Below are positions 2,133 to 61,498 of a DNA stretch of 61,498 bases, one piece after another. Position 1 is the stretch's first letter, and every line of letters begins with the position of its first letter. Position numbers and translations under genes: made by a program. Source of the stretch: an uncultured Methanosarcinales archaeon (GTDB lineage: Archaea; Nanobdellota; Nanobdellia; Woesearchaeales; ARS49); NCBI GenBank assembly GCA_964360565.1, contig CAYHXI010000001.1, positions 1 through 61,498 of the forward strand. The letters run 5' to 3'. A model generated the notes under the pieces. The model worked only from the letters and a program-made list of their open reading frames with translations. It was not told the origin of the DNA and ran no database searches.

Positions 2133-4333
2133 GCTAAGCTGCAAACTGAAAATCCACAGCTAGGACAGGTTGCGCATCCTTCGCTGAAAAAGATTTTACT
2201 GTTGCACTCGGGACAAAGGTCATCAGACTCTTGTTTTACAACAGATGGTTGTTGCACTTGCAAAGAAGGCTCGTTCTTTAATTTCTTTTTCTCTTCCAAA
2301 TTAATATTGAGCACTTGAACATCTTTGCTTCCATCTCTGTAAATAGTCACTCCTTTGCAGCCGAGTTTGTAAGCCAGCAAATAAACTTCTTCAACATCTT
2401 TTGTTGTTGCCCAATTAGGGAAGTTTACTGTTTTGCTAACCGCATTATCTGTAAATTCTTGGAATGCTGCCTGCATTCTGCAGTGCCAGTACGGAGAGAT
2501 GTCGTAAGATATTCTGAAAACATTTTTGACATCATCTGGAATCTCACCGAGGTCTTGAATTGTTCCTTTGTTAGCTATTTTTTTCATCAATTCTTCAGAG
2601 TAAAATCCTCTTTCTTTAGCTACTCTTTCAAAATATTCATTGATGTAAACTAATTCTTTTCCATCCATGACTACTTTTGTAAAGCAAAGCGCAAACAAAG
2701 GTTCTATTCCTGAACTGCAATCTGCTATCATACTAATAGTTCCAGTTGGAGCAATAGTTGTTCTCGTGCAATTTCTTATCGGAGTGCCTCCTTTGTATAT
2801 ACTTATGTCAAAGTTTGGGAATGGTCCTCTTACTTTTGCCAGCTCCATAGATGCTTTGTCTGCTTCAGTAGATACGAACAACATTAAATCTCTTGCAAGA
2901 TTTACTCCTTCTTCGCTGTCGTATTTTACTTTCATCTGGAATAAAAGATCTGCAAAGCCCATGATTCCTAAACCTATTCTTCTGTTAACTTTGCACATAT
3001 AATCTATCTGAGGCAAAGGATATTTGTTCATATCAATTACATTGTCTAAAAAGTGTATTGATGTGTGAACCATGCCTCTTAACTTTTCCCAGTTTACTTT
3101 GCCAGCATCATAAATTTTAGAAAGATTTATACTTCCAAGATTGCAAGCTTCGTAAGGAAGCAAAGGTTGCTCTCCGCAAGGATTTGTGCTTTCTATTTGT
3201 CCAAGAGTTGGAGTTGGGTTAGCTCTTGAATTATTTATTCTATCTATAAAAACAACTCCAGGGTCTCCAGTTTTCCAAGCCATTACAACAATTAAGTCGA
3301 ATACTTGTCTTGCACTTAATCTTTTCATAGCCACTCCAGTTTTAGGATGAACTAAATCATAGTCTTCTCCTTTTTCTAGAGCTTCCATGAATTTTTCTGT
3401 TATTGCTACAGAGATGTTGAAATTAAGAAGAGTTTTGTTATCTTCTTTCATAGTTATAAATTCTAAAATATCTGGATGGTCAACTCTTAGGATTCCCATA
3501 TTTGCTCCTCTTCGTTTACCTCCTTGCTTTACTACTTCGGTTGCGGCGTCAAAGACTTTCATGAAGCTTATAGGTCCTGAAGCAACTCCTTTAGTGCTTT
3601 TGACAATATCATTCTTAGGCCTCAATCTTGAGAAGCTGAATCCTGTTCCTCCACCGCTCTTGTGAATTATTGCAGTGTGTTTTACAGAATCAAATATTTC
3701 TTCCATACTGTCTCCAACTGGAAGAACAAAACATGCAGACAATTGCTGAAGCTCGTTTCCTGCATTCATTATTGTGGGAGTGTTGGGCAAGAATTCAAAG
3801 TTGCTTAAAATATCATAAAATTCTTTTTCAGTTCTTTGAACATCTTGACTGTATCTTGAATCTGCTTGAGAAAGATTATGCGCGATTCTAGTCATCATTT
3901 CCTCAGGACTTTCTATTATACTGCCAGACATATCTTTTTTCAAATATCTTTCTCTAAGAACTGTTAAAGAGTTCATAGATACTTTTAATGCAGTTGTTTT
4001 GCCGTCTAAAAGTGCAGACTTAGAATCTCTTAATTCTCTTCTTTTTTCTCTGTATAAAATGAATGTTTTTGCTGTTTTTGCGTGGCCGTTTTCCATTAAA
4101 ACTTTTTCTACCACATCTTGAACTTGTTCGACTGAAGGAACTTCATTAGGTTTAACATTTTTTTCTAACATCAATACAACTTTTCCAGCTAATTCTTCTG
4201 CTTTGATTCTATCTGAGCCGCCCACTGACTGGGCTGCTTTAAAGATTACTTCAGTTATTTTATCTTTCTGAAATGGAACAATATTTCCATCTCTTTTTTT
4301 TATTTGCGTTATTGTTGTTAATTCTTGAGTCAT
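2129..4333 (-). CDS. nrdJ: class II (adenosylcobalamin-dependent) ribonucleotide reductase
   Basis: N-terminal ATP-cone (IKKRDGNIVPFQKDKI). Catalytic core motifs LSACFVLPV, STNPCGEQPLLPYEACNLGS, APTGTIS. C-terminal CxxC...CxxC zinc ribbon. GGAGG 13 nt upstream of the ATG. Confidence 0.95.
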   Translation of the reverse strand: MTQELTTITQIKKRDGNIVPFQKDKITEVIFKAAQSVGGSDRIKAEELAGKVVLMLEKNVKPNEVPSVEQVQDVVEKVLMENGHAKTAKTFILYREKRRELRDSKSALLDGKTTALKVSMNSLTVLRERYLKKDMSGSIIESPEEMMTRIAHNLSQADSRYSQDVQRTEKEFYDILSNFEFLPNTPTIMNAGNELQQLSACFVLPVGDSMEEIFDSVKHTAIIHKSGGGTGFSFSRLRPKNDIVKSTKGVASGPISFMKVFDAATEVVKQGGKRRGANMGILRVDHPDILEFITMKEDNKTLLNFNISVAITEKFMEALEKGEDYDLVHPKTGVAMKRLSARQVFDLIVVMAWKTGDPGVVFIDRINNSRANPTPTLGQIESTNPCGEQPLLPYEACNLGSINLSKIYDAGKVNWEKLRGMVHTSIHFLDNVIDMNKYPLPQIDYMCKVNRRIGLGIMGFADLLFQMKVKYDSEEGVNLARDLMLFVSTEADKASMELAKVRGPFPNFDISIYKGGTPIRNCTRTTIAPTGTISMIADCSSGIEPLFALCFTKVVMDGKELVYINEYFERVAKERGFYSEELMKKIANKGTIQDLGEIPDDVKNVFRISYDISPYWHCRMQAAFQEFTDNAVSKTVNFPNWATTKDVEEVYLLAYKLGCKGVTIYRDGSKDVQVLNINLEEKKKLKNEPSLQVQQPSVVKQESDDLCPECNSKIFFSEGCATCPSCGFSVCSLA

Positions 4334-4353
4334 TTTCTTTAGGCCTCCTCTTT

Positions 4354-4431
4354 TTAGTCTGTGGTCAATAGTCTAGGGTCTGTAGCTTTTTGTAAATCTC
4401 TACTGACTACCGACCACTTACTATTAACTAC
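4354..4431. repeat. GT/AC-word palindromic element, copy E2 (nrdR-nrdJ junction, inside the nrdR reading frame)
   Basis: TAGTCTGTGGTC (4355-4366) pairs imperfectly with GACCACTTACTA (4412-4423). Contains CTACCGACCAC at 4407-4417. Confidence 0.7.
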
Positions 4432-4896
4432 TTTTTTCGGTTGCTGCAAGCTTTTAATCTCTGCAGTGAATTGTGAAACATCCTTGAATCTTCTGTAAAC
4501 TGAAGCGAATCTAATGTATGCAACTTCATCTATTTCTTTCAAGAAACGCATAACCATTTCTCCAATTAATTTACTTTTAACTTCAGATTGATCTAATCTT
4601 AGCAAAGAAGATTCTATTTTGTCAACTATTTCATCTATTTTTTCTCTTTTAACTGGACGTTTTTCGCAAGCTCTAATTAATCCTTTGAGAAGTTTTTCTC
4701 TTGAGAATTGTTCGATTCTTCCATCTTTTTTAATTACTGAAAGTCCGCTCATTTCAACTCTTTCGTAAGTTGTAAATCTTTTAGAGCAGTCCTCACACTC
4801 TCTTCGTCTTCTTATAGATTCAGAATTTGGAGTCAGCCTGCTGTCAAGCACTCTTGTTTCTTCATTTAAGCAAAATGGACATTTCAGTTTATTCAC
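4354..4896 (-). CDS. nrdR: transcriptional repressor NrdR (zinc ribbon + ATP-cone) with an unusual ~30-aa C-terminal tail
   Basis: KCPFCLNEETRVLDSRLTPNSESIRRRRECEDCSKRFTTYE zinc ribbon followed by ATP-cone VIKKDGRIEQFSREKL. The last ~30 codons are encoded by repeat element 4354-4431. Confidence 0.9.
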   Translation of the reverse strand: MNKLKCPFCLNEETRVLDSRLTPNSESIRRRRECEDCSKRFTTYERVEMSGLSVIKKDGRIEQFSREKLLKGLIRACEKRPVKREKIDEIVDKIESSLLRLDQSEVKSKLIGEMVMRFLKEIDEVAYIRFASVYRRFKDVSQFTAEIKSLQQPKKVVNSKWSVVSRDLQKATDPRLLTTD

Positions 4897-4930
4897 CTTT
4901 TTTATTTTTACAGTTGTTTTTCCAGAGTAA

Positions 4931-4957
4931 AGAAAATTACTGAACTAGTAATTTTCT
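4931..4957. promoter_or_regulatory. perfect 11-bp palindrome in the nrdR upstream or leader region
   Basis: AGAAAATTACT gaact AGTAATTTTCT, 35-60 nt upstream of the nrdR start codon. Confidence 0.4.
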
Positions 4958-5018
4958 AACTCCAAAAAGTCTTTAGCCTTTTCCGAGTAACAACAAACAG
5001 TGTTTTACCGTCGTAAAA

Positions 5019-5034
5019 CCACAATATGTTGTGT
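5019..5034. promoter_or_regulatory. candidate NrdR box
   Basis: CCACAATATGTTGTGT matches 14 of 16 positions of the published NrdR-box consensus acaCwAtATaTwGtgt as I recall it. It lies upstream of nrdR. Confidence 0.5.
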
Positions 5035-5051
5035 TTTATCATTGAACTAAG

Positions 5052-5067
5052 ACACTAGATAAGAATT
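5052..5067. promoter_or_regulatory. weak second NrdR half-box
   Basis: In ACACTAGATAAGAATT only the left half matches. Centre-to-centre distance to box 1 is 33 bp, against the ~31-32 expected. Confidence 0.25.
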
Positions 5068-5073
5068 TCCATG

Positions 5074-5085
5074 TTTATAAATATA
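5074..5085 (-). promoter_or_regulatory. TATA-like box possibly driving nrdR-nrdJ-cobO
   Basis: TTTATAAATATA. On the minus strand the predicted start site (~5050) would fall on the candidate NrdR boxes. Confidence 0.3.
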
Positions 5086-5128
5086 TTGTAATGGAAAAAT
5101 ATATTATATAAAAGATATAGAATTATGG

Positions 5129-5167
5129 CATATTTCCTGAATTCGCAAGCTCATTCAAGGAAATATG
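5129..5167. repeat. hairpin repeat H3
   Basis: CATATTTCCTGAA pairs with TTCAAGGAAATATG (13 bp, one bulge). The loop is the exact 12-mer TTCGCAAGCTCA (5142-5153) shared with H1. Confidence 0.7.
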
Positions 5168-5220
5168 AAAAGTTTATAAATAACTTCGTTTTGAAACTAA
5201 TAAATTAGGAGGTGTTGTGT

Positions 5221-5814
5221 ATGTTTGAAACAATACAAAAAAAATTTGAAAGTTTAGACAGTGTCTTTAACCAAAAAGCATATGACTCTGCCATAGATTC
5301 TGATAAAATTAGTGGGTTTGATCCCAATTCAGATAAACTTGATGAAAAATTAAAGAATTCGTGGCTAACTAGCATTCCTTTTGCGAAATTAACTGGCAAA
5401 GAAACTAAGTATGTTCTTCTTGAAGTAACTTTAGAAAGCGATGGCAAAAAATATTCTCAAAAACTTCTTCGTGGCTTTGAACAAGCAATAGATTCACATC
5501 CACTCATCGCTGAGTATTTTTTGAAAGAAGTAAAGTCCAAATTAGATGGTCTTTTAGAGCTTCCTCAAAGATGGCCAGAATCTGGCGAAGGAATTTATAA
5601 AAATCCAATTCCACAAATTGTAGTGGAAAAAGAAGGAGTGAAATTAACTATCTCCGTTTTAGGCGGTGCAAAGTACGATTTAAAAGATAAACGCATAAAT
5701 CGAAGAGGTCATAGCCAAGCATTTGGAGCGATACATTCTGAGTATAACAACGAAGTGAATGATATGCTGAAAATGCTGGTGAAGAGAGAAGAGTTTAGCG
5801 GGTTTGAAGTTTAA
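5221..5814 (+). CDS. hypothetical protein (~197 aa)
   Basis: Track ORF opens at GTG 5212, but AGGAGG at 5207-5212 sits 8 nt before ATG 5221, so 5221 is preferred. TTTATAAA box at 5173-5180. Confidence 0.6.
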   Translation: MFETIQKKFESLDSVFNQKAYDSAIDSDKISGFDPNSDKLDEKLKNSWLTSIPFAKLTGKETKYVLLEVTLESDGKKYSQKLLRGFEQAIDSHPLIAEYFLKEVKSKLDGLLELPQRWPESGEGIYKNPIPQIVVEKEGVKLTISVLGGAKYDLKDKRINRRGHSQAFGAIHSEYNNEVNDMLKMLVKREEFSGFEV

Positions 5815-7964: not shown

Positions 7965-8911
7965 CCCACAAATCCCTTAACTACATCTGATGCTATAGAA
8001 AATCCAACTCCTTCAAAGCCAGAAACTTTCATCGTATTAATTCCAATTATTTTTCCAGCTTTATTTATGAGTGGTCCGCCGCTGTTTCCTGGATTAATTG
8101 GAACGTCAACCTGCAAATAATTTATTCCATTAATGTTTCTTAGCGCGCTTACTATTCCTTCAGTAACTGTAAAATCAAGCCCTCCAGGACTGCCTAGCGC
8201 AACTGCTTTTTCTCCAACTCTAATATTAGAAACATCTTCAAAAGAGAATTCATTAAAAGTTCCGCTGATTTTTATTAGCGCTAAATCTTTTGTAGAATCT
8301 GTTTTAACAACTTGAGCAGAAAAAGTTTTGCCGTCAAAAGTTTTTACTATTATACTTCCTGCTCCATCAACGACATGATTATTTGTTACTATAACTCCAT
8401 CTGATTTAACAATCGCTCCGCTGCCGATTTTTCCACCTGCATTTATGCTAACAACAGAATTAATTACGTTGCTTATTGTATTGCTGAAGTCCGCTCCAAT
8501 ATCCAGATTTGCAAGGTCTTTTTTAAGATTAGCGCTGGTTACCTGAACTTGATTAAGTTGAGTGGTTAATTGAGATAATTGCTGTTTATTATCCTGCTTT
8601 ACAGATTCAATATTACTCTGAATATTTTGAACATTTCTGTTAATCTCTGTTTTAAGTTCAGTACTTGTGCTTTTAAGTTCTTGGTCAACTTGTTTAAGAC
8701 TTTCCTGAGCGGCAGAAAGTTTTTTATCTTGCTCTCCTAACTTATTTATTTGCTCAGATTTAAAATTCTCTAATTCAGAATTAAGCTGGCTGATTCTACC
8801 AGTATAATCGTTAACAAGCTGTCCTGTAACGCTTTGCTGATATTCATATCCTGTAATTGACATTCCTATAACTAATACTAATGTCAGTGAAAATAAGATT
8901 ACGTCTCGCAT
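7961..8911 (-). CDS. membrane-anchored trypsin-like serine protease (HtrA/DegP S1C-like, no PDZ seen) with coiled-coil linker
   Basis: N-terminal TM segment and a Q/E/K/L-rich coiled-coil region. Catalytic triad contexts TNNHVV (His), DLALIKI (Asp), GNSGGPLIN (Ser). TATA-like box 8934-8941. Confidence 0.8.
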   Translation of the reverse strand: MRDVILFSLTLVLVIGMSITGYEYQQSVTGQLVNDYTGRISQLNSELENFKSEQINKLGEQDKKLSAAQESLKQVDQELKSTSTELKTEINRNVQNIQSNIESVKQDNKQQLSQLTTQLNQVQVTSANLKKDLANLDIGADFSNTISNVINSVVSINAGGKIGSGAIVKSDGVIVTNNHVVDGAGSIIVKTFDGKTFSAQVVKTDSTKDLALIKISGTFNEFSFEDVSNIRVGEKAVALGSPGGLDFTVTEGIVSALRNINGINYLQVDVPINPGNSGGPLINKAGKIIGINTMKVSGFEGVGFSIASDVVKGFVG

Positions 8912-38466: not shown

Positions 38467-39459
38467 ATGACTAAACGCGCACTTATAACAGGAATAACTG
38501 GACAAGATGGATCATATTTGGCCGAACTTTTGCTTTCTAAAGGTTATGAAGTTTATGGAATTGTAAGACGAAGCAGCACACTTAATAGAAAAAATATCGA
38601 TCATTTGCAGAATGAAAGTTCTGTCATGAATTCAAGATTTAAGTTATTATATGGAGATCTTACTGATGCAAATTCAATATCCAAAATTTTGCATGATGTG
38701 AAACCTGATGAAGTTTATAATTTAGGTGCGCAAAGTCATGTTAGAGTTAGTTTTGATGTGCCAGTTTATACTGCGGATACTATCGCATTAGGCACTCTGA
38801 GGCTTCTTGAAGCGATTAGACAGGAAAATACAAAAATAAAGTTTTATCAGGCTTCGAGCAGCGAGATGTATGGTAAAGTGCTCGAAATACCCCAAAAAGA
38901 GAACACTCCTTTTAATCCTAGAAGTCCTTATGCTTGTGCAAAGGTATTTGCGCATCAAATTACTAAATTATATAGAGATTCTTATAATATGTTTGCATGC
39001 GGTGGAATATTATTTAATCATGAATCTCCTAGAAGAGGAGACACTTTTGTTACAAAAAAAATTGTTAAAGCAGTTGTGCAAATAAAGCTAGGAAAACAAA
39101 AAGAGCTGTACTTGGGAAACCTAGAATCAAAAAGAGACTGGGGTTATGCTCCTGAATATGTTGAAGCAATGTGGCGTATACTTCAGCAGGAAAAACCAGA
39201 TGATTTCGTTATTGCAACTGGAGAAACACACACAGTTAAAGAATTTATCGAAGAAGCATTTAACTATGTTAATCTCAACTGGAAAGATTACGTTAAAATA
39301 GATGCTAAGTATTATCGTGCATCTGAAGTGGATTTTTTACAAGGAGACTATGCTAAAGCTAAAGAAAAACTTGGTTGGGAGCCTAAAGTGAAGTTTAAGC
39401 AGTTAGTTAAGTTGATGATTGATGCAGAGTTTGAAGAAGAAAAAAGAGCACGAATGTGA
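38467..39459 (+). CDS. gmd: GDP-mannose 4,6-dehydratase
   Basis: [42 protein letters not shown] and [10 protein letters not shown]. Confidence 0.95.
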
Positions 39460-39464
39460 TTAAT

Positions 39465-39504
39465 AGTGAACGACACAAATAATAGGACACTAGTGTCGTT
39501 CACT
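39465..39504. repeat. perfect 12-bp hairpin T1 downstream of gmd
   Basis: AGTGAACGACAC (39465-39476) pairs with GTGTCGTTCACT (39493-39504); 16-nt loop. Confidence 0.75.
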
Positions 39505-39506
39505 AA

Positions 39507-39554
39507 ATAGTTGGCGACTCAAAAGAGTGTTCAATAACTTTCTTCGCCAACTAT
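39507..39554. repeat. perfect 11-bp hairpin T2
   Basis: ATAGTTGGCGA (39507-39517) pairs with TCGCCAACTAT (39544-39554); 26-nt loop. Confidence 0.75.
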
Positions 39555-39607
39555 AAATACAAATTAATTAGCTATTTCTGCAAATAATATTTTAGGTACT
39601 TTCAGAG

Positions 39608-39812
39608 TACGTGGAAAGCTCAGTCTTTATAATATCAAGAAATTTTTCCGCCATGCAAGATTAGTTATTTGCTGATTCGCTGGTTTTATTCGTTTCCATC
39701 TCCCTCGGACCCGAAGGGAGATGGAAACGATTATCAACAAAAAAAGGGAAAAACAAACAGCGTGGCGGAAAAATTTACCAAAGTGAAATACTTCTCTTAG
39801 CTTTCCACGTAT
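39608..39812. ncRNA. triple-nested inverted repeat: candidate structured RNA, bidirectional terminator or MITE-like element
   Basis: IR-A: TACGTGGAAAGCT 39608-39620 pairs with 39800-39812 (13 bp, perfect). IR-B: AAATTTTTCCGCCATGC 39640-39656 pairs with 39760-39776 (17 bp with one T/G pair). IR-C: CGTTTCCATCTCCCT 39691-39705 pairs with AGGGAGATGGAAACG 39715-39729 (15 bp, perfect). Confidence 0.35.
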
Positions 39813-40933
39813 CTTTCAGAAACTTCTGGTTTTTTTTGTATTTTTCTAAGTATTGATGCGATATATTTTAATTGATCATCAGTTAATTTCGGACTTGAAG
39901 GTAAATAAAGACCTTCTTTTTCAAGCATTTCACTGACTGGAAATTTATCCTGTTGAGAAATGAATTTTTTCAAAGGAGGTTGTTTATGCATTCCTGTGAA
40001 AAAGAATCGCGAATCAATTCCATTTTCAAATAATTGTTTTTTTACTTCATCTCTTTCAACACCGAATTCTTTTTTTATTAATATTCCATACATCCAGTAA
40101 ACATTGCGTACATCTTTACTTTCAAACGGTGTTCGAATCCCAGGAATGTCTTTAAGTAATTCATTATATTTGTATGATATTTCTCTTTTTCGACGTATTA
40201 TTTCTTCTATTTTCTCTAATTGAGCGAGTCCTATGGCTGCTTGCAAATTAGTAAAAGGATACTTAAAACCTATCTCTTCATGAACATACCTTCTTTCTTT
40301 ATCAAAACAAAAGTTAGCCAACCAACGCGCTCTTTCTGCTAACTTTTCATTATCTGTGATGACTATTCCGCCTTCACCTGTTGTAACGATTTTGTTAGAA
40401 TAGAAACTGAATGCGCTCATATGTCCGAAGCTACCGACCTTTTTTCCTTTGTATAATGCTCCGTGAGCTTCTGCTGCATCTTCTATAATATACAAATTAT
40501 GTTTTTTAGCAATTCTTTGTATTTTATCCATATCGCAGGGATGACCATAAATGTGTACTGGCATAATTGCTTTAGTTCGTTCAGTAATTTTTTCTTCTAT
40601 TTTCTCAGGATCTATATTAAACGTCTGAGGTTCAGCATCAACAAATACTGGCTTTGCACCTGTGTAAATTACGCTTAAAGGGCAGGCCATCATAGTAAAA
40701 TTAGGAATTATTACTTCATCACCCTCTTTAATTCCTAGTGTTGAGACTGCTAGGTGTAACGCTGCAGTTCCACTAGGTACACAGATGCCATATTTAACAC
40801 CGCAATAAGAAGCAAATTCTTTTTCAAAAAGCTTGTTGTATTTGCCTCCTGAAGAAATCCAATTTAAATCTAAGCAATCATTCACATATTTCTTTTCGTT
40901 TCCATTTAGAGGAGGTTCATATACTGGAATCAT
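39797..40933 (-). CDS. DegT/DnrJ/EryC1/StrS-family PLP-dependent sugar aminotransferase
   Basis: Family layout with SFYSNKIVTTGEGG, which holds the PLP lysine context. Confidence 0.9.
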   Translation of the reverse strand: MIPVYEPPLNGNEKKYVNDCLDLNWISSGGKYNKLFEKEFASYCGVKYGICVPSGTAALHLAVSTLGIKEGDEVIIPNFTMMACPLSVIYTGAKPVFVDAEPQTFNIDPEKIEEKITERTKAIMPVHIYGHPCDMDKIQRIAKKHNLYIIEDAAEAHGALYKGKKVGSFGHMSAFSFYSNKIVTTGEGGIVITDNEKLAERARWLANFCFDKERRYVHEEIGFKYPFTNLQAAIGLAQLEKIEEIIRRKREISYKYNELLKDIPGIRTPFESKDVRNVYWMYGILIKKEFGVERDEVKKQLFENGIDSRFFFTGMHKQPPLKKFISQQDKFPVSEMLEKEGLYLPSSPKLTDDQLKYIASILRKIQKKPEVSERYVES

Positions 40934-61350: not shown

Positions 61351-61385
61351 TTAAACACTTAGATACTGAAGAATAGAATAATATG

Positions 61386-61469
61386 TCAAGAACCACCAGT
61401 CAAAGACTGGTGGCATGTGAGAGGCAATCTGCCTCGAACTTCAACACCGAACAACTAGTGGTTCTTGAG
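61386..61469 (+). ncRNA. GC-rich nested stem-loop element, candidate small structured RNA of unknown class
   Basis: Outer stem TCAAGAACCAC (61386-61396) pairs with GTGGTTCTTGA (61459-61469). Inner hairpins are CCACCAGTC-aaa-GACTGGTGG (61393-61413, competing with the outer stem for CCAC) and GAGGCA-atc-TGCCTC (61421-61435). Confidence 0.3.
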
Positions 61470-61498
61470 CAATTAGCGAATTCCACCTAATTGGTTTA

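What the first reader, a model, noticed from the sequence alone, without database searches (positions are those of the whole stretch)
39608..39812. 205-bp triple-nested perfect inverted repeats between convergent gmd and aminotransferase genes
Three concentric inverted repeats share one centre near 39710: IR-A of 13 bp (39608-39620 / 39800-39812), IR-B of 17 bp (39640-39656 / 39760-39776) and IR-C of 15 bp (39691-39705 / 39715-39729, locally GC-rich). The right arm of IR-A lies inside the last codons of the aminotransferase gene. Each IR-B arm reads AAATTTTTCCGCC in the direction of the incoming transcript, so it presents a T5 tract to both convergent genes. The single non-Watson-Crick position in IR-B is a T/G pair on the plus strand and would be A/C on the minus strand, a weak hint that a plus-strand RNA folds. 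Candidate explanations are a bidirectional terminator, a stable non-coding RNA, or nested MITE insertions.
Basis: seen in the sequence. Interest (0 to 1): 0.6.

Follow-up and report, generated by a model that had tools for sequence, protein, structure and literature searches.

The report
IS66-type miniature transposon (MITE) in archaeon
The 205-bp nested palindrome is one of seven copies of a small non-coding transposon (a MITE) that borrows the ends of an IS66-family insertion sequence and landed in the last codons of a sugar aminotransferase gene of a tiny groundwater archaeon; this is an ordinary kind of element with an unusually structured interior.

Summary
Three concentric inverted repeats centre on about 39709, and the fold z-scores are -10.3 (+ strand) and -8.9 (- strand).

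It is a mobile element, not a locus-specific terminator or RNA gene.
- The same 205-220-bp element occurs exactly 7 times in this 1.46-Mb archaeal genome.
- It has 14-bp terminal inverted repeats (TIRs), GTACGTGGAAAGCT.
- Four copies carry 8-bp target-site duplications (TSDs). Here the duplication is CTTTCAGA, at 39599-39606 and 39813-39820.
- Only the outer repeat layer has a duplication, so this is one MITE and not nested MITEs.
- The insertion changed the aminotransferase C-terminus from ...SEST* to ...SERYVES*.

The same TIRs bound 1.56-1.58-kb insertion sequences in related archaea and in metagenomes. These encode an IS66-family transposase (zf-IS66 + DDE_Tnp_IS66) and show perfect 8-bp duplications. 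No such transposase is present in this genome bin.

The two inner repeat pairs are unrelated to the IS. They are conserved across copies: about 90% identity against about 50% for the spacers. They keep pairing through compensatory changes but show no strand bias (G-U 7, A-C 9). The apical loop is flipped between close copies, which points to events at the DNA level.

No canonical terminator or Rfam family matches.

Verdict: a new member of a known kind, of modest interest.

The parts
39599..39606 (.). Left copy of the 8-bp target-site duplication, CTTTCAGA
   Evidence: Identical to 39813-39820. In this genome, 8-mers 214 nt apart match 8/8 at a rate of 6.2e-5.
39607..39812 (+). Complete MITE copy ('family Z'), 206 bp, non-coding and palindromic
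   Evidence: One of exactly 7 copies found by BLAST, nhmmer and a covariance model. The homology boundaries coincide with the outer inverted repeat.
39607..39620 (+). Left terminal inverted repeat, GTACGTGGAAAGCT (continues CAGTC). It matches the left end of the IS66-family IS.
   Evidence: The first 19 nt match the left end of the intact IS in L235/L236 (GTACGTGGAAAGCTCAGTCG). The 14-mer also bounds the 1580-bp IS in G166.
39640..39656 (.). Left arm of the middle inverted repeat (AAATTTTTCCGCCATGC), with a T5 tract
   Evidence: The core TTTTCCGCC is invariant in all 7 copies bar one base in C65.
39687..39705 (.). Left arm of the inner GC-rich hairpin (core GTTTCCATCTCCC)
   Evidence: Across the family this helix is 100% paired, and 3 pairs carry compensatory changes.
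39706..39714 (.). Apical loop
   Evidence: The sequence between the conserved cores is TCGGACCCGAA here. In the co-oriented close copy C50 it is the exact reverse complement, TTCGGGTCCGA.
39715..39733 (.). Right arm of the inner hairpin (GGGAGATGGAAAC)
39760..39776 (.). Right arm of the middle inverted repeat (GCGTGGCGGAAAAATTT), which gives a T5 tract on the minus strand
39799..39812 (-). Right terminal inverted repeat (ATACGTGGAAAGCT on the minus strand, then AAGAGAAG). It resembles the right end of the IS.
   Evidence: The IS right end reads GTACGTGGAAAGCTTAGAGGAG, which matches 19 of 22. This repeat encodes the new C-terminal residues YVES and the stop codon of the aminotransferase.
39813..39820 (.). 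Right copy of the target-site duplication, CTTTCAGA; it lies inside the aminotransferase coding sequence
39797..40933 (-). DegT/DnrJ/EryC1 aminotransferase gene whose 3' end received the insertion
   Evidence: PF01041, covering residues 11-362 of 378. With the element the tail is ...PEVSERYVES*. With the two flanks joined it is ...PEVSEST*.
38467..39459 (+). GDP-mannose 4,6-dehydratase (gmd), the convergent neighbour
   Evidence: PF16363, 6.7e-142.
39461..39556 (+). A separate, unrelated two-hairpin repeat element ('family X', 7 copies) directly after the gmd stop codon; not part of the MITE
   Evidence: (I4, I5).

Best explanation
The nested palindrome at 39607-39812 is one non-autonomous transposon, a MITE. 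It belongs to a 7-copy family in a small groundwater DPANN-type archaeon. Its termini are those of a single-transposase (ISBst12-like) IS66-family insertion sequence that circulates in the same archaeal order and phylum.

Mechanism. An IS66-type DDE transposase supplied in trans recognises the 14-19-bp termini (inferred). It inserts the element with 8-bp staggered target cuts. The 8-bp duplications are shown for this copy, for 3 other copies and for intact IS copies.

Here the element landed two codons before the stop of the aminotransferase gene. The gene now ends inside the terminal repeat.

No cognate transposase is present in this genome bin. The copy is therefore probably immobile at present, or it depends on a transposase that was not assembled or is carried by another population (inferred).

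The middle and inner inverted repeats belong to the element's own conserved interior and are not separate insertions. Their pairing is kept by changes on both arms without strand bias, and the loop flips between copies. This fits DNA-level hairpin and template-switch processes plus selection on the element. Whether they help transposition, or now serve the host as a 3'-end hairpin with oligo-T stop signals, is not shown.
For: Repeated element:
- Exactly 7 copies in the genome (C1, C2, C15, C47, C50, C65, C68), and homology ends at the outer repeat.
- All copies are intergenic.

Target-site duplications:
- Perfect 8-bp duplications flank C1 (CTTTCAGA), C68 (TAGATAAA) and C65 (TAAAAATA). C47 matches 7 of 8.
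- The chance rate is 6.2e-5 per site.
- Joining the flanks restores an ORF ending ...SEST*.

Link to an IS66-family element:
- The TIR motif GTAYRTGGAAAGCT is found in 22 of 400 other genomes of the phylum, with 2-10 matches in each of eight of them. The reversed control pattern gives 0-1 hits per genome.
- In G166 the motif bounds a 1580-bp element encoding zf-IS66 (5e-8) and DDE_Tnp_IS66 (1e-33).
- Intact 433-440-aa homologues at 70-81% identity are abundant in metagenomes.
- Full copies of 1555-1564 bp carry the same TIR and perfect 8-bp duplications: TGATGAGG, GTTCTTCA and GAATTTAG.
- Another MITE family with the same TIRs, in G118, also has perfect 8-bp duplications.
- An ISBst12-group IS66 element with a single 449-aa transposase and an 8-bp direct repeat has been described experimentally (PMC12898284).

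Context:
- The C2 copy is itself interrupted by another MITE.
- DPANN genomes are known to be MITE-rich (PMC11602168).
Against: - No empty-site allele or insertion polymorphism was found. The two nearest population variants (Hainich groundwater and Logan contigs) carry the element at the same site.
- No IS66, IS4/IS5, IS256, IS1595, ISL3 or IS6 transposase is present in this genome bin.
- Three of the seven copies (C2, C15, C50) lack a recognisable duplication, and C50 has lost its terminal repeats.
- The interior is not a deletion derivative of the IS. It has no similarity to the IS beyond about 20 nt at each end, so its origin is unexplained.
- The conserved blocks evolve more slowly than the spacers even among close copies (93-95% against 71-79%). 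A purely selfish, decaying element does not obviously predict this.
Confidence: 0.92

Rival explanations
1. Host-level function: the element, or at least its conserved middle and inner palindromes with their T4-T6 tracts, acts as a bidirectional transcription stop or 3'-end-protecting hairpin for the convergent gmd and aminotransferase genes. The same would hold for the genes next to the other copies. Its mobile origin would not exclude this.
For: - The first T5 tract downstream of each convergent gene lies in a middle arm.
- Archaeal RNA polymerase terminates at oligo-T (established knowledge).
- 0 of 7 copies lie between divergent genes, and 5 of 7 lie within 20 nt of a stop codon.
- The blocks are more conserved than the spacers even within the close subfamily.
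- Pairing is strongly maintained: 92.9% of cells paired against about 48% when the partners are slid.
Against: - No hairpin followed by a T-run exists on either strand.
- T4-T6 tracts are commonplace at 33% GC.
- Three copies (C2, C47, C50) sit 0-62 nt upstream of the next co-directional gene, where a strong terminator would be polar.
- Absence from divergent intergenic regions is not significant (0.75^7 = 0.13).
- Intergenic spacers in this genome are so short (about 36 nt here before the insertions) that any insert lies near a stop codon.
Confidence: 0.12
2. A family of structured non-coding RNA genes: a long three-stem hairpin RNA transcribed from one strand, dispersed by transposition.
For: - Very stable fold.
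- 14 pairs carry compensatory changes, and no shuffle out of 500 reaches the observed score.
- Spacer lengths are conserved while spacer sequences drift.
Against: - No Rfam family matches.
- G-U and A-C mismatches are balanced, 7 against 9, so neither strand is favoured.
- Copy orientation relative to genes is mixed: 3 the same, 2 opposite, 2 convergent.
- No conserved promoter lies in the variable spacers.
- The loop is inverted between close copies.
- No copies were found in 300 genomes of the order.
- Two-fold symmetric DNA constraints and quasi-palindrome template switching explain the covariation equally well.
Confidence: 0.05
3. Nested insertions of three different small palindromic elements, one inside another.
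For: - Nested MITE insertions do occur in this genome. A 97-bp family-Y element sits inside the C2 copy, and a family-X element sits inside a family-Y copy in C63.
Against: - There are no duplications around the middle or inner layer in any of the 5 copies examined.
- The middle and inner motifs occur only inside the 7 full elements.
- All three layers are present at conserved spacing in every copy.
Confidence: 0.02

Closest known systems
MITEs of prokaryotes in general, including the dense MITE populations reported for DPANN archaea (PMC11602168)
   Same: Small (206 bp), non-coding and intergenic. [quoted passage not shown]
   Different: It is not a simple internal-deletion derivative. Only about 20 nt at each end come from the IS. 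The interior is an unrelated three-layer palindrome whose blocks are far better conserved than its spacers.
IS66 family, ISBst12-like single-transposase group (for example ISDge4, PMC12898284)
   Same: The partner IS has zf-IS66 and DDE_Tnp_IS66 domains and a transposase of about 435-440 aa. It lacks tnpA/tnpB-type accessory genes. Its TIR begins with GTA and it makes 8-bp duplications.
   Different: The partner is archaeal (DPANN). Its TIR reads GTACGTGG rather than GTAAGCG-type. A small upstream ORF of 40-52 aa with a weak DUF2080 hit accompanies the transposase. The window holds only the MITE, not the IS.
Correia elements (CREE) of Neisseria and other palindromic bacterial MITEs (RUP, Nezha, RPE)
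   Same: They are palindromic MITEs that insert next to, or into the ends of, genes. They can alter C-termini and fold into long hairpins in transcripts.
   Different: Correia elements duplicate TA and have 26-bp TIRs, and their promoter, terminator and RNase III roles are documented. Here the duplication is 8 bp, the host is an archaeon, and no transcript-level role is shown.
Archaeal MITEs of Sulfolobus (SM1-SM4) and haloarchaea
   Same: Non-autonomous elements in archaea that share TIRs with resident IS families.
   Different: Those families derive from ISC-type or other IS families and are usually found together with their partners. This one uses IS66-type ends, and its partner is absent from the bin.
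Minute hairpin-loop inversions and quasi-palindrome template switching (known from chloroplast non-coding DNA and E. coli mutagenesis; recalled from memory)
   Same: The loop is an exact reverse complement between otherwise co-oriented copies, and the stems change on both arms together.
   Different: This is only inferred here from seven sequences. No experimental system exists for this organism.

Membership tests
MITE (non-autonomous DDE transposon) | Short and without coding capacity | tested here: met
   The element is 206 bp. No ORF of at least 50 aa lies inside it except the last codons of the aminotransferase. The spacers are not conserved.
MITE (non-autonomous DDE transposon) | Terminal inverted repeats | tested here: met
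   GTACGTGGAAAGCT / AGCTTTCCACGTAT here. Both ends are present in 6 of 7 copies.
MITE (non-autonomous DDE transposon) | Target-site duplication of fixed length | tested here: met
   The duplication is 8 bp: perfect in C1, C68 and C65, 7 of 8 in C47, absent in C2, C15 and C50. The chance rate is 6.2e-5.
MITE (non-autonomous DDE transposon) | Multiple dispersed copies | tested here: met
   7 copies on 7 contigs.
MITE (non-autonomous DDE transposon) | Ends shared with an autonomous IS that encodes a transposase | tested here: met
   IS66-family elements of 1555-1580 bp carry the same 14-19-nt ends in G166 and in metagenome and NCBI contigs. None is present in the own genome.
MITE (non-autonomous DDE transposon) | Direct evidence of mobility (empty site or insertion polymorphism) | tested here: inconclusive
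   Population variants L198 and L200/L201 carry the element at the same site. The 83%-identity relative L202 has a different gene order.
IS66 family (as mobilising partner) | DDE_Tnp_IS66 catalytic domain with an N-terminal zf-IS66 | tested here: met
   PF03050 at 1e-33 and PF13005 at 5e-8 in the G166 element. The precomputed Pfam annotation of the intact homologues agrees.
IS66 family (as mobilising partner) | 8-bp target duplication | tested here: met
   L233 TGATGAGG, L235 GTTCTTCA and L236 GAATTTAG. An 8-bp direct repeat is reported for ISDge4.
IS66 family (as mobilising partner) | Canonical tnpA-tnpB-tnpC three-gene layout | tested here: not met
   There is a single transposase ORF plus a 40-52-aa upstream ORF. 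This corresponds to the ISBst12-like subgroup, not classical IS66.
Intrinsic bidirectional terminator | GC-rich hairpin immediately followed by a T-run on both strands | tested here: not met
   The terminator scan finds none in 39607-39812. GATTATC follows the inner hairpin on the + strand and GAATAAA on the - strand.
Intrinsic bidirectional terminator | Transcript 3' ends map to it | not testable with these tools
Structured ncRNA family | Match to a curated RNA family | tested here: not met
   Only sub-threshold hits to microRNA-precursor hairpin models.
Structured ncRNA family | Covariation that favours one transcribed strand | tested here: not met
   Pairs are maintained, but G-U 7 against A-C 9. 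Copies lie in both orientations relative to genes.
Nested MITEs | Each layer has its own duplication and occurs alone elsewhere | tested here: not met
REP/BIME-type extragenic palindromes | Short palindromes without TIR or TSD, mobilised by a RAYT (Y1) transposase | tested here: not met
   TIRs and 8-bp duplications are present. The presence of a RAYT gene was not tested.

The most novel reading that the evidence does not exclude
The conserved middle and inner palindromes have no counterpart in the IS66-type partner. They keep their spacing and pairing while the spacers drift. They could be a functional cargo module carried between borrowed IS66 ends. One possibility is a cis-acting hairpin that boosts IS66-type transposition of very short substrates. 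Another is a host-exapted symmetric signal, such as an archaeal oligo-T stop plus 3'-end hairpin or a protein-binding site, spread through a streamlined DPANN genome by transposition.
Probability: 0.13. Interest if true: 0.55.

Novelty: new member of a known kind. Interest (0 to 1): 0.3.

Why it matters
- It explains an eye-catching structure as a transposon scar. This prevents it from being annotated as a terminator or an sRNA.
- It shows that the aminotransferase C-terminus is encoded by a transposon end.
- It links a MITE family in a DPANN archaeon to a specific, widespread IS66-type (ISBst12-like) insertion sequence of that phylum. This gives a concrete pair for studying IS66-family transposition, which is poorly understood, and MITE dynamics in ultra-small archaeal genomes.
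- The block-wise conservation and the flipped loops are a small natural data set on how palindromic DNA evolves.
- None of this changes current concepts.

Tried and rejected
1. Searches for the whole element outside the genome found nothing real.
- BLAST in 40 relatives.
- Covariance model in 300 genomes of the order, giving one weak hairpin-only hit, G183.
- GTDB-wide pattern TIR + middle motif, giving 4 chance hits in bacteria.
- JGI metagenome scan for the inner hairpin, giving 12 unrelated hairpins.
- Two viral scans, giving chance hits only by nhmmer.
- Plasmid and phage BLAST, no match.

From these I first concluded, wrongly, that the family was confined to this genome. A later scan for the TIR alone showed that the ends are shared widely.

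2. My first alignment (A1) had copies C68 and C15 in the wrong orientation. That made the spacers look saturated. A comparison of the arms exposed the error and alignment A2 corrected it. The pair statistics and the G-U/A-C totals are unchanged by the flip.

3. My argument that intact duplications prove the insertions are much younger than the divergence between copies is weaker after this correction. Within subfamily B, spacer divergence of 21-29% is compatible with decay in place.

4. A possible inversion of the whole middle-bounded segment relative to the outer arms (C1 against C68) is hinted at but not resolved. The identity differences are only about 0.1 over about 30 nt.

5. The IS66 and IS4 loci of the nearest relatives (L037-L044) have no Z-like ends.

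6. The empty-site search through aminotransferase homologues found only occupied sites or rearranged loci.

Full report
**Observation.** The three concentric inverted repeats exist at, or within 1 nt of, the stated coordinates.
- Outer: 39608-39623 / 39796-39811.
- Middle: 39640-39656 / 39760-39776.
- Inner: 39687-39705 / 39715-39733.
- The segment 39600-39820 folds at -84.6 kcal/mol (+ strand, z = -10.3) and -83.3 kcal/mol (- strand, z = -8.9). No shuffle out of 200 does as well.
- The flanking ORFs are a GDP-mannose 4,6-dehydratase (38467-39459, +) and a DegT-family aminotransferase (39797-40933, -).
- The genome encodes a TATA-binding protein, which in the control panel is found only in archaea. 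It is 1.46 Mb, 33% GC and about 90% complete.
- Contigs of the same population come from Hainich groundwater assemblies.

**It is a repeated element with transposon hallmarks.**
- BLAST, nhmmer and a covariance model all find exactly seven copies in the genome: C1:39607-39812, C2:19177-19482, C15:11057-11275, C47:3414-3628, C50:about 8455-8657, C65:7536-7742 and C68:7067-7284. Homology stops at the outer repeat.
- Six copies end in GTAYRTGGAAAGCT-type terminal inverted repeats. C65 carries a variant that is changed on both arms. C50 has lost its ends.
- Immediately outside the ends lie 8-bp direct repeats: CTTTCAGA (this copy, 39599-39606 and 39813-39820), TAGATAAA (C68), TAAAAATA (C65) and GAAAAAAA/GAAAAAAT (C47).
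- An 8/8 match at that spacing occurs at 6.2e-5 per site in this genome.
- The flanks of the middle and inner repeats show no such duplication (2-5 of 8). Those motifs never occur outside the seven full elements. This is therefore one element, not a nest of three.

**Effect on the gene.**
- Removing the element and one copy of the duplication gives an aminotransferase ending ...KKPEVSEST*. With the element it ends ...KKPEVSERYVES*, and the new residues and the stop codon are read from the terminal repeat.
- The Pfam domain ends at residue 362 of 378, so the change is probably harmless (inference).
- Without this element and the neighbouring one (see Context below), the two convergent stop codons would be about 36 nt apart.

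**The partner.**
- The genome bin has no IS66, IS4/IS5 (DDE_Tnp_1), IS256, IS1595, ISL3 or IS6 transposase.
- A scan of 401 genomes of the phylum for the terminal motif alone hit 22 other genomes. Eight of them have 2-10 matches each. The reversed control pattern gave 0-1.
- In G166 two perfect copies of GTACGTGGAAAGCT, in inverted orientation, bound a 1580-bp element. Its reading frame carries zf-IS66 (PF13005, 5e-8) and DDE_Tnp_IS66 (PF03050, 1e-33). That copy is interrupted by one in-frame stop.
- More than a thousand homologues exist in metagenomes. The best 120 are mostly intact proteins of 430-451 aa at 60-81% identity, typically on IS-sized contigs.
- Full copies on longer contigs are 1555-1564 bp, start GTACGTGGAAAGCTCAGTCG and end ...CTCTAAGCTTTCCACGTAC. 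They are flanked by perfect 8-bp duplications: TGATGAGG, GTTCTTCA and GAATTTAG.
- The left end of the window's element matches that IS left end over 19 nt. Its right end resembles the IS right end in 19 of 22 positions.
- A 166-bp MITE in G118 uses the same ends and also has perfect 8-bp duplications.
- A single transposase of about 440 aa, a GTA-initial TIR and an 8-bp direct repeat match what is described for the ISBst12 group of the IS66 family (PMC12898284).
- The chain 'same ends, same duplication length, transposase in trans' is thus shown, except for the biochemical step itself.

**The interior.**
- Beyond about 20 nt at each end the element has no similarity to the IS. It is therefore not a plain deletion derivative, unlike the G118 MITE.
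- After two mis-oriented copies were corrected, copies fall into a close subfamily (C47, C68, C15; 80-85% overall) and four more distant lineages.
- The six conserved blocks (two ends, two middle arms, two inner arms) are about 90% identical between lineages and 93-95% within the subfamily. The spacers are 46-53% and 71-79%. Spacer lengths are kept within a few nucleotides.
- On the corrected alignment 92.9% of cells pair, against 33-50% when the partners are slid. 14 pairs show changes on both sides, and no shuffle out of 500 reaches the observed score.
- This covariation does not point to an RNA. G-U and A-C cells are balanced (7 against 9). Copies lie in both orientations relative to their neighbours: three the same, two opposite, two convergent.
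- The apical loop is the exact reverse complement between co-oriented close copies. C1 has TCGGACCCGAA and C50 has TTCGGGTCCGA. C68 has ACTTCGGATCCGAGT and C15 has ACTCGGATCCGAAGT.
- Such minute loop inversions and paired arm changes are what hairpin-mediated template switching in DNA produces (established knowledge, inferred here).
- Why the blocks are conserved remains open. Possible reasons are a requirement for transposition, a host-level use, or both.

**Terminator and RNA ideas.**
- No Rfam family matches.
- No hairpin-plus-T-run terminator is present in the element.
- The T5 tracts in the middle arms are real. They are the first T5 downstream of each convergent gene, and archaeal polymerases do stop at oligo-T.
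- However, T4-T6 runs are frequent at this base composition. Three copies also sit 0-62 nt upstream of a co-directional gene, where strong termination would be harmful.

**Distribution and mobility.**
- The whole element was not found in 40 relatives by BLAST or in 300 genomes of the order by the covariance model. It was also not found in GTDB-wide, JGI-metagenome, viral, plasmid or phage searches.
- Two population variants of the aminotransferase carry the element at the same site. One is 100% identical apart from an A8/A9 homopolymer difference, and the other is 94% identical. Short-read contigs break inside the inner hairpin.
- A relative at 83% identity has the aminotransferase followed 35 nt later by a co-directional gmd, with no element.
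- No empty site was seen, so recent mobility is not demonstrated.

**Context.**
- The genome is crowded with other small repeat families.
- A 96-bp two-hairpin element (7 copies) sits at 39461-39556, right after the gmd stop codon.
- A 97-bp family has about 27-30 copies. One of them is inserted inside the C2 copy of the present element.
- A family of about 165 bp has about 10-12 copies, and the window ends inside one of them.
- High MITE densities in DPANN genomes have been reported (PMC11602168).

**Verdict.** This is a well-supported MITE of an IS66-type insertion sequence, a new member of a known kind. The only unexplained feature is the conserved, non-IS palindromic interior.

Noticed in passing
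window 39461-39556: A separate 96-bp repeat element ('family X') begins two bases after the gmd stop codon. It consists of two tandem hairpins and occurs in 7 copies at 80-86% identity. The stem of the first hairpin differs between copies on both arms (GTGAACGACAC / GTAAAAGAAC / GAAAACGAAAC). The second hairpin (ATAGTTGGCGA...TCGCCAACTAT) is conserved.
   Followed up: partly
G000 contig C2:19361-19457 (and about 27-30 other sites, e.g. C104:4220-4316, C15:4282-4384): A 97-bp repeat family ('Y') has ends ATAGAGG...CCTCTAT and copies at 78-99% identity. One copy is inserted inside the C2 copy of the MITE studied here. Several Y copies are themselves interrupted: C81, C31, C66, and C63 by a family-X element.
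   Followed up: partly
window 61380-61498 (contig end): The window ends inside a repeat family of about 165 bp ('W') with about 10-12 copies at 85-97% identity. Several copies lie at contig ends, so this repeat breaks the assembly.
   Followed up: partly
window 39706-39714 versus C50, and C68 versus C15: The apical loop of the inner hairpin is an exact reverse complement between otherwise co-oriented, closely related copies. These are minute hairpin-loop inversions.
   Followed up: yes
window 39826-39833 (the A8 run of the aminotransferase on the minus strand); L198:6080-6120: A Hainich H52 groundwater contig of the same population has A9 instead of A8, plus an A-to-G change. This shifts the frame, so the aminotransferase ends ...KKTGSF* inside the target-site duplication. 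It is either a homopolymer polymorphism or an assembly error.
   Followed up: partly
L213:1003-2582 (G166:C37:3702-5281): The only complete copy of the IS66-type partner in the sampled representative genomes has one in-frame stop codon between the zinc-finger and DDE parts. Intact copies exist in metagenomes. They carry a small upstream ORF of 40-52 aa with a weak DUF2080 hit.
   Followed up: partly
L220-L222 (G473) and L211 (G476): These are 43-bp mini-palindromes made of the IS right-end repeat, 5 nt, and its inverted copy: GTACGTGGAAAGCTTAGAG-CACTC-CTCTAAGCTTTCCACGTAC. At least four were seen in one genome (three were read) and one in another. None has a visible 8-bp duplication, and their origin is unexplained.
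   Followed up: no
C65:7536-7742: This copy has a variant terminal repeat: GTGTTTAGCTC at the left end and GAGCTAAACACGTAC at the right. GGAAAGC is replaced by GTTTAGC on both arms, yet it has a perfect 8-bp duplication (TAAAAATA). Whether a matching IS variant exists was not checked.
   Followed up: no
L202 (JGI 3300076124 contig): In a relative whose aminotransferase is 83% identical, gmd follows the aminotransferase on the same strand after 35 nt. It is not convergent there, so the gene order around this sugar-modification cluster is rearranged between relatives.
   Followed up: no
G000 contig C36:2843-3966 and 4119-5242: A tandem duplication of about 1.1 kb at 97.8% identity.
   Followed up: no
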